From sequence record OR983333.1: a DNA stretch of 64,000 nt; one strand, written 5' to 3'. The stretch is from Escherichia phage 1-6af. Under the pieces are notes generated by a model. The model saw nothing but the letters and a program-made list of their open reading frames with translations, made no database searches and was not told where the DNA came from. A program made the translations under genes and the position numbers. Shown here piece after piece: positions 3,308 to 42,971 of the stretch (position 1 is the first letter of the stretch; every line of letters starts with the position of its first letter).

Positions 3308-3831
3308 CAGTAGACAGTGTGACTGTTAGCCCTGCGTCTTTAGCAAGTCTAGAGACAGGGGCTACTCGGCAGTTCACTGCAAGCGCGGAGAAAAGTGATG
3401 GTTCTACCGAAACAACTGGCTTTACTTGGTCAGTGACAGGAGGTGGTTCTATCACTCAGTCGGGTTTGTATACTGCTCCGAGTGCGTCTCAATCCACTGA
3501 TGTATCCATTACTGCAACTTTAGAAGGTGTTTCTGGTACGGCAACCATTTCCGAAATTGTTGCTCCTGCTCCTACTATTGTAGCTAAGGGTCCAATTACG
3601 GGTAAAACTGGTGGTTCCTCCACTAATTTCACTACCATGTTTACTGTAACTAATTCTATTGCTGATGATTACACACTTGTTGTAACTCCCGCAGAAGCTG
3701 GTACAATAAGTGCTAATAATTCGTTAAAATTAGATGCTGCTGCAAGTGGCGAAGTTACTGTTCAAGCAAGTTTGACAGCCAACCCGTCTATCAATGCAAC
3801 ATGCACTTTTACTGGTGTAACACCTGCTTAA
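3295..3831 (+). CDS. Ig-like (Big_2-type) C-terminal extension of capsid, reached by -1 frameshift (capsid-Ig fusion)
   Basis: -1 frame has no stop from 3295 to 3831; no RBS before the GTG at 3319; Thr/Ser/Gly-rich beta-type domain with Ig-like pattern. Confidence 0.55.
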   Translation, partial: GGGVTVDSVTVSPASLASLETGATRQFTASAEKSDGSTETTGFTWSVTGGGSITQSGLYTAPSASQSTDVSITATLEGVSGTATISEIVAPAPTIVAKGPITGKTGGSSTNFTTMFTVTNSIADDYTLVVTPAEAGTISANNSLKLDAAASGEVTVQASLTANPSINATCTFTGVTPA

Positions 3832-29580: not shown

Positions 29581-29994
29581 TTATATGAATTTCTGCATAC
29601 CTTTGATACGAGGGTTATCATCACCAACTCTCGATTTACAGTAAGCGATAAAAGATTCAGTATTGAGGTTATCTTTTTGGGAACCCCACTGAAGGTTGTC
29701 TGCTCTATTGTTGCTCGGATTATCATCCAGATGCATAACAACAGCGTTAGGAAAAGGTTTATCACCGTGAAAAGTCTCACACACTAAGATATGAATCCTT
29801 TTCTTAAACTTTCTTTTCTTGTTTACAAACACCATTCTTCCATCTTTCTCTCTATATCCGCTATATGGTTTTCCTACGAAAAGCCTAACTCCACCATTAT
29901 TCATTATGGCTGTGAAAGGCTTAATCTTAACTCTACCAAAAGATGATACGGAAAGGAAATCATAATAGGGATGATCTTTCCAGACTTCTTCCAC
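29581..29994 (-). CDS. HNH homing endonuclease
   Basis: HGDKPFPNAVVMHLDDNPSNNRADNLQWGSQKDN HNH_3-type motif. Confidence 0.7.
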   Translation of the reverse strand: MEEVWKDHPYYDFLSVSSFGRVKIKPFTAIMNNGGVRLFVGKPYSGYREKDGRMVFVNKKRKFKKRIHILVCETFHGDKPFPNAVVMHLDDNPSNNRADNLQWGSQKDNLNTESFIAYCKSRVGDDNPRIKGMQKFI

Positions 29995-30003
29995 TATTTA
30001 TCC

Positions 30004-30750
30004 TCAAAATGGGCTATCGTTGTCGTCTTCATAAGTAGAAGCAGGCTCTTTATCAATCGTAGGGATTGAAGGAGTAGCTTCTTTCTGATCTGTTTCAGAA
30101 GCACGAGTAATTTCACGACCAGCCAGAGGCATGTTCTTAGCGTCATTAGCTTGAGTAAGCAGGTTGCGCTGGAACGGGAACATCAGTTGATAGGATGCTA
30201 CGTTCTCATCGGTTTCAGCATACGGTTCGAAGAATACCAGAGGACTACGAGCTTCACCAACTGCTGCACGATATTTGGTTGGGATTGGAGAAATGGTCTT
30301 GATGGAGTTTTTAACTTCACCAGCTTTGTTAGTGTAAGAGTTAACCAGAATGTTAACAGGCTGACCTAACAGAACATCCTTGAACCAAGACAGATCACCT
30401 TTCAGTGCTTGAATACTTGGGTCAATCATCTTGCAAAGATCAAGAATACCAGAGTTCTTAGCTCGTGGGTTTACATCATAGCTCTTGAACTGGCAAGCCG
30501 GACGTGGTTCTAATGCCTTACCATCGGAATCTTTACCAGTAGCATCAACACCAATCAGCTCGAAAGCTAAATCCATACGGAAAGCCGGATTCTTAGGAGT
30601 TACTGCTTTGGTCTTCGGGTCAATCCAAGGGTCACGATTGTGAACACCCAAACCTACTACACGAACGATACGTGCTTCGTACTCACCATCAGGGATTACA
30701 TCGTAGTTGGATTTACGGGAAGAAGTTGCGATAGTTGGAATCATAGACAT
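30004..30750 (-). CDS. single-stranded DNA-binding protein (T7 gp2.5-like)
   Basis: Acidic C-terminal tail ending ...YEDDNDSPF with terminal Phe; in replication block; large upstream promoter region. Confidence 0.5.
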   Translation of the reverse strand: MSMIPTIATSSRKSNYDVIPDGEYEARIVRVVGLGVHNRDPWIDPKTKAVTPKNPAFRMDLAFELIGVDATGKDSDGKALEPRPACQFKSYDVNPRAKNSGILDLCKMIDPSIQALKGDLSWFKDVLLGQPVNILVNSYTNKAGEVKNSIKTISPIPTKYRAAVGEARSPLVFFEPYAETDENVASYQLMFPFQRNLLTQANDAKNMPLAGREITRASETDQKEATPSIPTIDKEPASTYEDDNDSPF

Positions 30751-30809
30751 ATTTTAATTTCCTTATTTAATTTGAAAGATTGTTGCTCTCTTTGAGCGGT
30801 TATGTATAG

Positions 30810-30818
30810 TATACATTA
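30810..30818 (-). promoter_or_regulatory. TAATGTATA promoter-like motif (minus strand), part of palindrome ATGTATAgTATACAT
   Basis: Revcomp of tatacatta; ~60 nt upstream of SSB gene start. Confidence 0.45.
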
Positions 30819-30881
30819 CGCTTATACCGATAAGAGTACTATATAATATAAGTATCTTTGGTAGTAGATATAACACACTAG

Positions 30882-30890
30882 TAATGTATA
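30882..30890 (+). promoter_or_regulatory. TAATGTATA motif on plus strand with no downstream ORF
   Basis: Exact 9-mer; faces a 280-bp AT-rich ORF-free stretch. Confidence 0.3.
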
Positions 30891-31296
30891 TATTGTATAG
30901 CTGATAAAGTTATTGCAGGCTTGTATATTGGGCAATTCACAGAATCCCTTGCAAGTACCGAAGGGCAGGAGCCACCTGCGAGATAAAAATAGAGAATTAA
31001 GGAATCCTTGATTTAGGTTGTAGGGACTCCTAGGGACTTTGATTCTCTATTTAAAAGAATATTAATTACTTATTACCTAAATAATTAACTAACTTACTTA
31101 AACCAAATTCAAGAACAATAGATAAAAAGATTATTCCTAAGAAAGCTAAAAAGTAAAGGATATAAGTTACCATTCAAGTAAACCTTTAAAGTTAGATTGT
31201 TCTACTATCCTCTGATAGTGAAGATTAGAATCAGCTTGTTTCTTTAACATCTCATTATATTGATCTCTGATAGAGTCTTTATAAACTACAGGTTCT

Positions 31297-37253: not shown

Positions 37254-37571
37254 TTATGATGAGCTTAAAGCTCCTTTGCGTGCTCCAGCTGCTTTTCCAG
37301 CTCGATCACCACTTTTGCCGCCGTTTGAACGGTTTGAGCTGACTGATTCAACACGTAAGTTGCTTGACGCATTAGAACCTCCAGACTTGACAGCTCGTTT
37401 GTGTCCAACGTCTTTACCTCTGACAGCAGCTTTTCCATCGCGCTTTTCAACGATGCGACGTGCACGGTGGCGCTGAGCATCTCCGCTCTTGCTCCCAATT
37501 CCCGTTTCACCGCGCTTGATCGCAGTCCTTCTTTCTTGTGCATAATCTCTTTTTCCTACATGATCTGCCAT
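37254..37571 (-). CDS. highly basic Gly/Ser/Arg/Lys-rich protein (105 aa)
   Basis: Perfect RBS aggaga 6 nt before ATG 37571; overlaps two other open frames. Confidence 0.4.
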   Translation of the reverse strand: MADHVGKRDYAQERRTAIKRGETGIGSKSGDAQRHRARRIVEKRDGKAAVRGKDVGHKRAVKSGGSNASSNLRVESVSSNRSNGGKSGDRAGKAAGARKGALSSS

Positions 37572-37900
37572 TAGATTTCTCCTGATTCTCTTTGATTAAA
37601 GGTGTGGATGGCGTGGCAATTAGCACACAATATCCTGCACTTCCTCATCTCTTCTTTTACTTGAGATAAAGATCTGGTGTGCCCTTTGGAGAGTTCGAAT
37701 GACTTAGTTAATGGATTTAAATGATCAAACTGAAGAGCAGATGCGTGGCCCTTAAAGCCACACTCAGAGCATCCATAGAATGTTTTAACTCTACGAATAA
37801 AAGCTAGTTGCCTAACTCTTCTTCTCTCGTTATCTGCCTTTCTCTTATCTCTATTTCCTGGGTCGGCCCATCTACACGAGTCATTGCAAAACCTCTGCAT
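37571..37900 (-). CDS. HNH endonuclease
   Basis: CSECGF...QFDHLNP...CANCH motif. Confidence 0.6.
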   Translation of the reverse strand: MQRFCNDSCRWADPGNRDKRKADNERRRVRQLAFIRRVKTFYGCSECGFKGHASALQFDHLNPLTKSFELSKGHTRSLSQVKEEMRKCRILCANCHAIHTFNQRESGEI

Positions 37901-42481: not shown

Positions 42482-42490
42482 TATACATTT
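42482..42490 (-). promoter_or_regulatory. AAATGTATA promoter-like motif variant (minus strand)
   Basis: One mismatch to TAATGTATA; 40 nt upstream of gene start 42442. Confidence 0.35.
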
Positions 42491-42514
42491 GAGAGTTACC
42501 ATATCTACTACCAA

Positions 42515-42724: not shown

Positions 42725-42918
42725 TAGTAATGTACCTTTCCGCTGATATAAACACGACCAGAGGAATACTCTCTGGCCTTATGAATGCTAATACTCTTAG
42801 TTAAGTCCATATTGAACATAGACTTTTTAAACTCTCGAGCTTGTTGGCGGGTAGGTAGTGCAGTCATAGTCATACCACCTGATGCCCACTTAATCTTCGC
42901 TAACCAGAATTGTCTCAT
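42724..42918 (-). CDS. hypothetical small protein, W-x5-W family (paralogue)
   Basis: MRQFWLAKIKW...TRQQAR..KKSM. Confidence 0.35.
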   Translation of the reverse strand: MRQFWLAKIKWASGGMTMTALPTRQQAREFKKSMFNMDLTKSISIHKAREYSSGRVYISGKVHY

Positions 42919-42971
42919 TTATCTTTCATCCACATTAAAGGAGAGATGAAGTCTACTTCTCATAGACTTCG

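What the first reader, a model, noticed from the sequence alone, without database searches (positions are those of the whole stretch)
30751..31166. 415-bp AT-rich ORF-free region with a palindromic promoter motif and an outward-facing TAATGTATA with no gene behind it
Upstream of the SSB gene the motif is embedded in the palindrome ATGTATA-g-TATACAT (30802-30816), a possible operator or divergent promoter. A second exact TAATGTATA at 30882 points rightward into ~280 bp without any ORF. This stretch contains a tandem TAGGGACT repeat (31021-31039), and both flanking genes are on the opposite strand. It could encode a small RNA or antisense transcript, or be a regulatory/origin region.
Basis: seen in the sequence. 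Interest (0 to 1): 0.45.

Follow-up and report, generated by a model that had tools for sequence, protein, structure and literature searches.

The report
Unannotated small RNA gene in phiEco32-like phages
The "promoter with no gene behind it" is a conserved seventh phage-sigma promoter in phiEco32-like coliphages that most likely makes a ~160-nt structured non-coding RNA; this RNA matches no curated Rfam family or paper found in the library searched, and its job is still unknown.

Summary
The window is a phiEco32-like coliphage (Kuravirus).

- **Known promoter.** The minus-strand TAATGTATA (30810-30818) is the published gp36-sigma middle promoter P40 of gene 40.
- **Unlisted promoter.** The plus-strand TAATGTATA (30882-30890) is not among the six published gp36 promoters. 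It is kept in 26 sequence variants from phage genomes and metagenomes, exact in 20 of them.
- **Shared upstream element.** It carries the same 14-nt element (TTGGTAGTAGATAT, 10-nt spacer) as the validated promoter P68.
- **Hairpin at the start site.** A hairpin begins at the predicted +1 (30897). Its stem occurs as seven different complementary sequences, including G·U pairs that work only on the plus strand.
- **Downstream layout.** Next comes a swappable middle module, then a 95-nt block (30958-31052) holding the TAGGGACT repeat.
- **Conservation.** That block is 89-97% identical where the neighbouring gene is only 71-83% identical. It is non-coding in all six frames and has no Rfam match.

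The likeliest reading is a new phage-encoded small RNA, convergent with the gene 41/42 unit. Its function is inferred only.

The "ORF-free 415 bp" claim is partly wrong. Positions 31066-31173 encode phi32_41, a 35-aa hydrophobic peptide. The palindrome is conserved only among close relatives.

The parts
30004..30750 (-). Gene 40 homolog (phi32_40), a probable OB-fold ssDNA-binding protein with a DDDxPF tail. It is the left neighbour and the gene served by promoter P40.
   Evidence: synteny, 98-100% identity to Kuravirus gp40; no family function; model pLDDT 83, best fold hits SSB/RPA/PriB-like, weak; sub-threshold NCBIfam hit to a phage replication-initiation family.
30785..30797 (-). Stem-loop in the 5' UTR of the gene-40 mRNA (GCUC-AAAGA-GAGC on the minus strand). 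The stem differs but stays complementary in relatives.
   Evidence: GCTC/GAGC, GTTC/GAAC, GTTCA/TGAAC, GTCC/GGAC, GTCCA/TGGAC.
30802..30816 (.). Palindrome ATGTATA-g-TATACAT. The right arm is part of P40. The left arm is the initial transcribed region of gene 40 (inferred +1 at 30803).
   Evidence: Variation: centre base G/A/T, spacing 1 or 3 nt in close relatives, symmetry lost in L068-L074.
30810..30818 (-). P40, the published gp36-sigma middle promoter element TAATGTATA.
   Evidence: PMC8948821 Table S3. PMC4331800.
30858..30871 (+). Upstream promoter element TTGGTAGTAGATAT, 10 nt before the plus-strand motif. An identical 14-mer sits at identical spacing before promoter P68 (42501-42514, minus strand).
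   Evidence: (only two exact copies in the window). Conserved in relatives while the spacer sequence varies.
30882..30892 (+). Unlisted gp36-type promoter, TAATGTATAta, divergent from P40. Inferred +1 at 30897.
   Evidence: in the first 50 kb of phiEco32 the 5 exact sites are P13, P26, P40, P58 and this one; kept in 26 unique variants (20 exact, 1 TAATATATA, 4 TAATGAATA, 1 GAATGTATT). +1 placed using 'AATGTA centred at -11.5' (PMC12276001).
30897..30913 (+). H1, a 5'-terminal hairpin of the predicted RNA (AUAGCU-GAUAA-AGUUAU).
   Evidence: always starts 6 nt after the motif; seven different complementary stems; G·U in 9 of 21 sequences (would be C·A on the minus strand).
30914..30957 (+). Variable middle module, starting with the conserved UUGCA. 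At least four forms occur that share no obvious sequence similarity, each with its own hairpins.
   Evidence: Compensatory UCGUC/GGCGA versus UCCUU/AGGGA between L066 and L070. Length differences are not multiples of 3.
30958..31052 (+). Hyper-conserved 3' domain. H3 hairpin GCAGG-AGCCA-CCUGC (30965-30979); A-rich linker with an A5 tract (30980-30989); long hairpin H4 (30987-31052) containing AAGGAAUCCUU and the two TAGGGACT copies (31021-31028, 31031-31038).
   Evidence: 94-99% column identity, the highest in 1.9 kb; 89-97% against 71-83% for the gp40 CDS. H3 A-U to U-A compensatory change in L066; single copy per genome. Stops in all six frames (sequence).
31066..31173 (-). Gene 41 homolog, a 35-aa hydrophobic peptide (MVTYILYFLAFLGIIFLSIVLEFGLSKLVNYLGNK). 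It is convergent with the predicted RNA and its stop codon lies 13 nt beyond H4.
   Evidence: phrog_24970. Absent in the Paul, ECBP2 and StefiGeyer groups. Replaced by an unrelated 26-aa hydrophobic peptide in LAMP and L031.

Best explanation
The plus-strand TAATGTATA at 30882 is a genuine promoter for the phage sigma factor gp36. It sits back-to-back with the known promoter P40 and has not been listed before.

**Predicted transcript (inferred from sequence, no transcript data).** It starts at about 30897 and is a structured non-coding RNA of about 160 nt (145-190 nt in relatives). It has three parts:
1. A hairpin at the very 5' end.
2. An exchangeable middle module.
3. An almost invariant 95-nt 3' domain: a small hairpin, an A-rich linker, and a long hairpin carrying the TAGGGACT/GGA-rich segment.

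**How the 3' end forms (inferred).** The terminal hairpin has A5 on one side and 2-4 U on the other, so it may act as a two-way transcription stop. It would end leftward transcripts from the gene 41/42 unit and define or protect the 3' end of the small RNA. Rho termination in the G-poor stretch beyond it may help.

**Function (inferred, not shown).** The 3' domain stays the same while the phage's own genes drift. The RNA therefore most likely works through a partner that does not co-evolve with the phage, that is, a host protein or RNA or a very conserved phage protein. A mere antisense copy of its neighbour would not need that constraint.
For: **The promoter is real.**
- The exact motif is 8-fold over-represented in the window.
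- In the first 50 kb of phiEco32 the other four exact copies are all experimentally mapped promoters (PMC8948821).
- The motif is kept in 26 unique variants while its 9-10-nt spacer varies freely.
- It shares the 14-mer TTGGTAGTAGATAT, at the same spacing, with the validated gp79-activated promoter P68 (PMC12276001).

**The product is a plus-strand RNA.**
- Hairpin H1 starts at the inferred +1 in every variant, with seven different complementary stems.
- In the 21-sequence alignment, 2 of its 6 pairs show double changes in 7 cells, and 0 of 500 shuffles reached that cell count or the covariation score (the per-pair count was reached by 55 of 500).
- G·U pairs in H1 and H4 fit only the plus strand.
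- The plus strand folds better than the minus strand in all 21 variants tested.
- Compensatory changes occur in H3 and in the middle module.
- GC skew is positive on the plus strand here, opposite to the flanking minus-strand genes.

**It is non-coding but constrained.**
- Stops in all six frames; indels that are not multiples of 3.
- The 3' block is 89-97% identical against 71-83% for the gp40 CDS and 52-61% for the RNA's own 5' part.
- Single copy per genome, and found only in this phage clade.
Against: - No transcript data were available.
- No plus-strand intrinsic terminator is predicted: only 2-4 U follow H4, and the terminator scan found none. The 3' end is therefore uncertain.
- The thermodynamic signal is modest: z = -2.4, and the MFE is in the top ~11% of random 161-nt windows.
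- The 3' domain is almost invariant, so its structure cannot be tested by covariation. Its conservation could equally reflect a DNA-level site.
- In one relative (L080) the plus-strand promoter and its upstream element are kept but the RNA block is replaced by AT-rich sequence. This hints that the act of transcription, or an origin-like function, may matter more than this particular RNA.
- No target or partner was identified.
Confidence: 0.6

Rival explanations
1. Replication origin, or origin-activating transcript. A phage promoter fires into a conserved block and an AT-rich stretch next to a replication gene. The transcript opens the DNA or primes synthesis, and the invariant block with its TAGGGACT repeats and AAGGA-N-TCCTT palindrome is a protein-binding site.
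For: - A promoter with no gene behind it, followed by a conserved block and then 14-26% GC sequence.
- Direct repeats one helical turn apart, plus a palindrome whose centre varies while its arms stay fixed.
- The neighbour gp40 is SSB-like and has a weak, sub-threshold hit to a phage replication-initiation family.
- L080 keeps the promoter followed directly by AT-rich DNA without the RNA block.
- DNA-level recognition would explain invariance that structure alone does not.
Against: - No skew switch at 31 kb; skew simply follows gene orientation.
- The AT-rich stretch is largely the coding sequence of gene 41 and is mostly deleted in the Paul and ECBP2 groups.
- Only two repeat copies, and both change together (AGGGACT to AGGACT) with spacing going from 10 to 9 nt.
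- H1 and module covariation with G·U pairs shows selection on the RNA itself, although a primer RNA could also be structured.
- No origin has been mapped in this phage group; nothing was found in the literature search.
Confidence: 0.15
2. Cis-acting antisense RNA or insulator. The convergent transcript and its shared hairpin end or process leftward transcripts from the gene 58-41 operon. Or they control the small hydrophobic peptide gp41 in the manner of a type I toxin-antitoxin pair with overlapping 3' ends.
For: - Convergent layout, with the gp41 stop codon 13 nt from H4.
- gp41 is a 35-aa single-helix hydrophobic peptide. LAMP and L031 carry a different 26-aa hydrophobic peptide at the same spot, ending inside H4.
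- The A5 tract, which reads as U5 on the minus strand right after H4, is invariant in all 26 variants. This fits a leftward terminator.
Against: - A cis-antisense role puts no constraint on sequence, yet the block is hyper-conserved.
- About a third of the variants have no peptide gene but keep the RNA unchanged.
- H3 and the 5' half lie beyond the putative leftward terminator, so they would not overlap the gp41 mRNA.
- The hairpin is a poor canonical terminator: AU-rich base and a 44-nt interior. The scan did not flag it.
Confidence: 0.15
3. No dedicated product. The plus-strand motif is a by-product of the AT/TA-rich P40 control region, or serves only as a sigma-binding or decoy site. The conserved block is then purely a terminator or 3' UTR of the upstream operon.
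For: - One-mismatch versions of the motif are at chance frequency.
- The published searches listed six promoters and not this one.
- The folding statistics are modest.
Against: - The exact motif and its bipartite architecture are conserved across variants whose spacer and flanks have diverged or carry a 140-bp insertion.
- Identical upstream 14-mer as P68.
- The H1 hairpin is locked to the predicted +1 and shows plus-strand-specific covariation.
- Terminators are not normally more conserved than adjacent coding sequence.
Confidence: 0.08

Closest known systems
phiEco32 gp36-dependent middle promoters, especially P68 and P40 (Pavlova et al. 2012, as summarised in PMC8948821, PMC4331800, PMC12276001)
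   Same: Exact tAATGTAtA element. Same extended TAATGTATAta as the consensus quoted in PMC4281155. Identical TTGGTAGTAGATAT upstream element and 10-nt spacing as P68. Conserved across the clade.
   Different: It points away from every annotated gene, against the local direction of transcription. It is not among the six published promoters. Its activity has not been tested.
Lambda OOP RNA (own knowledge)
   Same: A short non-coding RNA made from its own promoter inside a phage early or middle region, convergent with the neighbouring gene and ending in a stem-loop. OOP was also once discussed as a replication primer.
   Different: OOP overlaps the cII coding end and acts as an antisense RNA. Here the predicted RNA stops before the gp41 stop codon, and its sequence is far more conserved than an antisense role requires. 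The promoter is phage-sigma dependent.
Type I toxin-antitoxin pairs with convergent 3' overlap: fst/RNAII of pAD1, txpA/RatA, bsrG/SR4 (own knowledge)
   Same: A small hydrophobic peptide gene facing a small RNA gene, with the two sharing a terminal hairpin.
   Different: The peptide is missing or replaced in many relatives while the RNA is unchanged. Toxicity is unknown. Most of the conserved RNA lies outside the possible overlap.
Transcription-activated phage and plasmid origins: T7 primary origin, T4 oriF/oriG, ColE1 RNA II (own knowledge)
   Same: A phage-specific promoter with no downstream gene, followed by AT-rich DNA and located next to replication genes. In ColE1 the primer RNA is structured.
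   Different: No mapped origin and no skew signal. The AT-rich part is coding and dispensable in relatives. 160 nt of GC-richer conserved sequence lie between the promoter and the AT-rich DNA.
Protein-titrating small RNAs such as CsrB/RsmZ (own knowledge)
   Same: Four invariant A(N)GGA motifs in the 3' domain (CAGGAG, UAAGGAA, AGGGACU twice). The only indels there switch AGGGA to AGGA, which the CsrA motif tolerates.
   Different: Only four motifs, not clearly presented in hairpin loops. Two variant groups have GGGGA at one site. The count is not significantly above chance. No Rfam similarity.

Membership tests
gp36 (phiEco32 sigma) promoter | Single element matching tAATGTAtA | tested here: met
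   Exact TAATGTATA at 30882-30890, extended to TAATGTATATA. Kept in 26 variants, 20 of them exact.
gp36 (phiEco32 sigma) promoter | Sits upstream of, and in the same orientation as, a middle or late gene | tested here: not met
   No conserved plus-strand ORF downstream. The nearest genes are on the minus strand.
gp36 (phiEco32 sigma) promoter | Promoter architecture shared with a validated member | tested here: met
   TTGGTAGTAGATAT-N10-motif is identical to P68. These are the only two exact copies in the window.
gp36 (phiEco32 sigma) promoter | Transcription by gp36 holoenzyme starting 6-8 bp downstream of the element | not testable with these tools
   Needs in vitro transcription or primer extension.
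Any curated RNA family (Rfam 15) | Covariance-model match at or near the gathering score | tested here: not met
   No hit at gathering threshold. Only noise at E 1.3-8 in the short and long variants.
Structured non-coding RNA (general) | Base pairs maintained by compensatory changes | tested here: met
   H1: seven complementary stem versions; 0 of 500 shuffles reach the observed covariation score. H3 and the middle module have one or two compensatory events each. H4 is invariant, so uninformative.
Structured non-coding RNA (general) | Absence of coding potential | tested here: met
   Stops in all six frames of 30958-31052. The 32-aa TTG ORF at 30913-31011 is broken by 1-nt and 26-nt indels in relatives.
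Intrinsic (bidirectional) terminator | GC-rich stem-loop immediately followed by a U tract | tested here: inconclusive
   H4 is followed by U5 on the minus strand (invariant) and by U2-4 on the plus strand. The stem base is AU-rich with a 44-nt interior, and the scan did not call it.
Type I toxin-antitoxin (3'-overlap class) | Small hydrophobic toxin ORF convergent with the RNA | tested here: met
   gp41 is a 35-aa hydrophobic peptide whose stop codon lies 13 nt from H4.
Type I toxin-antitoxin (3'-overlap class) | Toxin and RNA co-occur | tested here: not met
   The Paul, XT18, StefiGeyer, TH43, OliverMaurmann, NC-B, EK010 and ECBP2 groups keep the RNA but lack the peptide ORF.
Transcription-activated replication origin | Promoter followed by an AT-rich unwinding region | tested here: inconclusive
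   GC is 14-26% at 31050-31170. That stretch is the gene-41 coding sequence and is mostly deleted in a third of relatives.
Transcription-activated replication origin | Compositional strand switch at the site | tested here: not met
   Cumulative GC skew turns only at about 25 kb, where gene orientation flips. This is a weak criterion for such phages.
CsrA-type protein sponge RNA | Many A(N)GGA motifs displayed in hairpin loops | tested here: inconclusive
   Four invariant A(N)GGA motifs. Their loop placement depends on which of several alternative folds is right.

The most novel reading that the evidence does not exclude
A virulent coliphage uses its own sigma factor to make a decoy RNA. The invariant GGA-rich 3' domain of that RNA would capture a host global RNA-binding regulator (CsrA-like, Hfq or ProQ) or another host factor, reprogramming the cell at middle times. 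Equally unexcluded is that the transcript acts as a structured primer or activator of the still-unmapped replication origin of the phiEco32 group.
Probability: 0.12. Interest if true: 0.8.

Novelty: new variant of a known kind. Interest (0 to 1): 0.55.

Why it matters
phiEco32 is the model system for a minimal phage sigma factor (gp36) and its partner gp79, and its promoter set has been treated as six sites. A seventh, conserved, gene-less promoter with a P68-type upstream element would add a non-coding output to that programme.

It would also give a natural test case for what the upstream element does. And it would define a new phage small-RNA family whose 3' domain is more conserved than the surrounding proteins, which marks an interaction worth finding.

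The claim is cheap to test. One Northern blot or one re-analysis of existing infection RNA-seq would settle whether the RNA exists.

Tried and rejected
- **tRNA/tmRNA scan.** Nothing in the region.
- **Rfam, gathering and permissive thresholds, short and long variants.** Noise only.
- **Small protein on the plus strand.** The 32-aa TTG ORF at 30913-31011 is broken by indels in relatives.
- **Similarity to E. coli genomes.** None. Short complementarities would not be seen by this search.
- **Complementarity to other phage transcripts.** Only chance-level 10-11-mers.
- **Pairing of the conserved block with the gene-40 leader or RBS.** No better than shuffled controls in 6 of 7 variants.
- **Second copies in the genome, or copies in relatives at 63-69% gp40 identity.** None by profile search.
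- **Copies in bacterial genomes.** None.
- **Left palindrome arm (TTATGTATA) as a second rightward promoter.** Rejected, because it becomes TTTGTATAC or GGTATAC in close relatives and is lost in distant ones.
- **Long-range pairing of UUGCAGG with CCUGCGA.** Rejected in favour of the local H3 hairpin, because the compensatory change in L066 fits only H3.
- **GC-skew evidence for an origin.** Absent.
- **Literature.** Searches for a phiEco32 or Kuravirus small RNA, origin or transcriptome found nothing. The 2012 promoter-mapping paper and the 2008 genome paper are not held in the library.

Full report
**What the window is.** The 2 kb around the finding is 96-99.8% identical to many Kuravirus genomes (phage 1-6bf, SU10, NJ01, phiEco32). 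The gene at 30004-30750 (minus) is the homolog of phi32_40. The small ORF at 31066-31173 (minus) is phi32_41. phiEco32 encodes its own sigma factor, gp36. gp36 recognises a single element, tAATGTAtA, with transcription starting 6-8 bp downstream. Six such promoters have been published: P6, P13, P26, P40, P58 and P68 (PMC8948821 text and Table S3; PMC4331800). A 2025 structural paper places AATGTA at -11.5 (PMC12276001).

**Checking the observation.** The exact 9-mer occurs four times in the window against 0.48 expected. One-mismatch versions are at chance level. Two parts of the description need correcting:
- The right-hand 100 bp are not ORF-free. They encode gp41, a 35-aa hydrophobic peptide retained in most relatives.
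- Only the two ends are AT-rich. The centre, 30900-31050, is 36-50% GC.

The 'SSB' label has no family-level support. It is plausible all the same. The model (pLDDT 83) finds OB-fold SSB, RPA and PriB proteins as its best but weak matches, and homologs end in DDDxPF. There is also a sub-threshold hit to a phage replication-initiation family.

**The minus-strand motif and the palindrome.** TAATGTATA at 30810-30818 is P40. With AATGTA centred at -11.5, the gene-40 mRNA starts at about 30803. The left arm of the palindrome is therefore simply the first transcribed bases. Among close relatives the arms are kept while the centre base varies (G, A or T), or the spacing becomes 3 nt. In members with about 70% gp40 identity the symmetry is gone. 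I see no support for an operator. The left arm is also not a conserved second promoter.

**The plus-strand motif is a conserved promoter.**
- In the first 50 kb of phiEco32 the exact 9-mer occurs five times. Four are the mapped promoters P13, P26, P40 and P58, and the fifth is this site.
- I collected 26 distinct versions of the locus from phage records, IMG/VR, metagenomes and Logan assemblies. All keep the motif: 20 exact, one TAATATATA, four TAATGAATA and one GAATGTATT.
- Upstream lies TTGGTAGTAGATAT, then a 9-10-nt spacer whose sequence varies freely.
- The same 14-mer, at the same 10-nt distance, precedes P68, the promoter shown to be activated by gp79 in vitro. These are the only two exact copies in 64 kb.
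- The promoter unit is modular. One lineage has 140 bp inserted between it and P40.

**What lies downstream.** The inferred +1 is 30897. A hairpin, H1, begins exactly there in every variant and ends just before a conserved UUGCA. Its stem exists in seven complementary versions: AUAGCU/AGUUAU, AUAGCU/AGCUAU, AUAGA/UCUAU, AGAGUUA/UAACUCU, AUAGUU/AACUAU, AUCUCU/AGAGGU and ACAUC/GAUGU. In the 21-sequence alignment two of its six pairs show double compensatory changes and one alternates G-C with G·U. No shuffle out of 500 reached the observed covariation score or the number of doubly changed cells; the count of doubly changed pairs was reached by 55 of 500. The G·U pairs would be C·A on the other strand, so the selected molecule is the plus-strand RNA.

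Next comes a middle module with at least four forms that share no obvious sequence similarity, each with its own hairpins. L066 and L070 differ by compensatory changes, UCGUC/GGCGA against UCCUU/AGGGA.

The 3' domain follows:
- (A/G)GAAGG.
- Hairpin H3, GCAGG-AGMCA-CCUGC. L066 has GCUGG/CCAGC, a compensatory change.
- The linker GAGAUAAAAA.
- A long hairpin, H4 (30987-31052), containing AAGGAAUCCUU and the two TAGGGACU copies.

**How conserved the 3' domain is.** It is the most conserved stretch in 1.9 kb. It is 89-97% identical in genomes whose gp40 coding sequence is 71-83% identical and whose RNA 5' part is 52-61% identical. It has stops in all six frames, occurs once per genome, and was found only in this clade. 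Sister lineages at 63-69% gp40 identity lack it. No Rfam family matches.

**Weaker points.**
- The folding energy is only moderately unusual: z = -2.4, top ~11% of random windows. The plus strand does beat the minus strand in all 21 variants tested.
- H4 is invariant, so its pairing cannot be tested by covariation.
- There is no canonical plus-strand terminator. H4 is followed by only 2-4 U on the plus strand. On the minus strand it is followed by an invariant U5.
- One relative, L080, keeps the upstream element and the promoter but replaces the RNA block with AT-rich sequence.

**Interpretation.** Shown by comparative analysis:
- a conserved gp36-type promoter with P68 architecture;
- RNA-level selection on the plus strand starting at its predicted +1;
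- a hyper-conserved non-coding 3' domain.

Inferred:
- A discrete RNA of about 160 nt is made at middle times.
- H4 acts as a two-way stop. It would end leftward transcripts of the gene 41/42 unit and protect the small RNA's 3' end. Rho may assist in the G-poor stretch at 31050-31125.
- The RNA works in trans through a partner that does not co-evolve with the phage. That is the simplest reason for a sequence to stay fixed while neighbouring proteins drift.

**Rivals.** The three rivals are a transcription-activated origin, a cis-antisense or type I toxin-antitoxin-like arrangement with gp41, and no dedicated product. I could not exclude the origin reading. The gp40 neighbourhood, the repeats and palindrome, the AT-rich flank and L080 all fit it. 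Skew gives no signal, however, and the AT-rich flank is dispensable. The gp41 antitoxin idea is weakened because a third of the variants lack the peptide yet keep the RNA unchanged.

**Comparison with known systems.** The promoter belongs with the phiEco32 gp36 promoters by sequence and architecture, but fails the criterion of serving a gene. The RNA resembles lambda OOP in layout and the fst/RNAII class in its convergent pairing with a small hydrophobic peptide. It is not a member of either. No paper found in the accessible library describes it. The two primary phiEco32 papers could not be read. I therefore rely on later papers by the same group, which count six promoters.

**Verdict.** This is a real feature and more than chance. 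It is probably a new phage small-RNA gene driven by an unlisted seventh gp36 promoter. Its function is open, and a Northern blot or a re-analysis of existing infection RNA-seq (PRJNA1225266) would test whether the RNA exists.

Noticed in passing
window 37571-37900 (minus strand), compared with L065 (phiEco32) 42900-42960: The published promoter P58 (TAATGTATA at phiEco32 42945) has no counterpart in this window, even with one mismatch. The intergenic region upstream of the gene-58 homolog (37254-37571) is replaced by a 109-aa ORF with HNH-like Cys and His motifs. How genes 58-41 are transcribed in this phage is unclear.
   Followed up: partly
window 42501-42514 and 42482-42490 (minus strand): Promoter P68 carries the same TTGGTAGTAGATAT element, 10 nt upstream of its AAATGTATA, as the new promoter. 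I found no mention of this upstream element in the passages read. It could mark a promoter sub-class or a sigma-70 -35-like site (TAGATA-N18-TATATT scores 9 of 12).
   Followed up: partly
window 30785-30797 (minus-strand RNA): The gene-40 5' UTR has a stem-loop a few bases after the inferred start. Its stem covaries across relatives, including lineages that lack the small-RNA element. It is likely an mRNA-stabilising 5' hairpin.
   Followed up: partly
window 61499-61577 (minus strand): A borderline Rfam tRNA hit (29.7 bits against a gathering score of 29), which ARAGORN does not call.
   Followed up: no
L014 (phage EcK-vB), about 830-1040; also L020, L044, L052: A roughly 140-bp insertion sits between P40 and the plus-strand promoter in one lineage. 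This shows that the two divergent promoters are separable modules. The content of the insert was not examined.
   Followed up: no
L080, 360-655 (reverse strand); Logan contig SRR30464905_88817: A relative with 68% gp40 identity keeps the TTGGTAGTA upstream element and a TAATGTATT plus-strand motif. Very AT-rich sequence with AU-rich hairpins follows, instead of the conserved RNA block.
   Followed up: partly
window 30004-30750 (minus strand): gp40 homologs end in a DDDxPF tail like bacterial SSB, and the model has an OB-like beta core. The protein also gives a sub-threshold NCBIfam hit to 'phage replication initiation protein, NGO0469 family' (E 2e-5, 24 bits against a cut-off of 75).
   Followed up: partly
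window 29581-29994 (minus strand): A 137-aa ORF lies between the gene-39 and gene-40 homologs. It is annotated as an HNH endonuclease in phage Ptacy1532 and is absent at that position in phiEco32. It is another mobile insertion in the middle-gene cluster.
   Followed up: no
L025-L027, L076, L078, L079 (region upstream of gp40 homologs): Sister lineages have TAATGGATA instead of TAATGTATA upstream of gene 40, preceded by a repeated AGCTAAGCTAAGCTA-like segment. This suggests a shifted sigma specificity. TAATGGATA also occurs on the minus strand of this window at 3503, 42172 and 49438.
   Followed up: no
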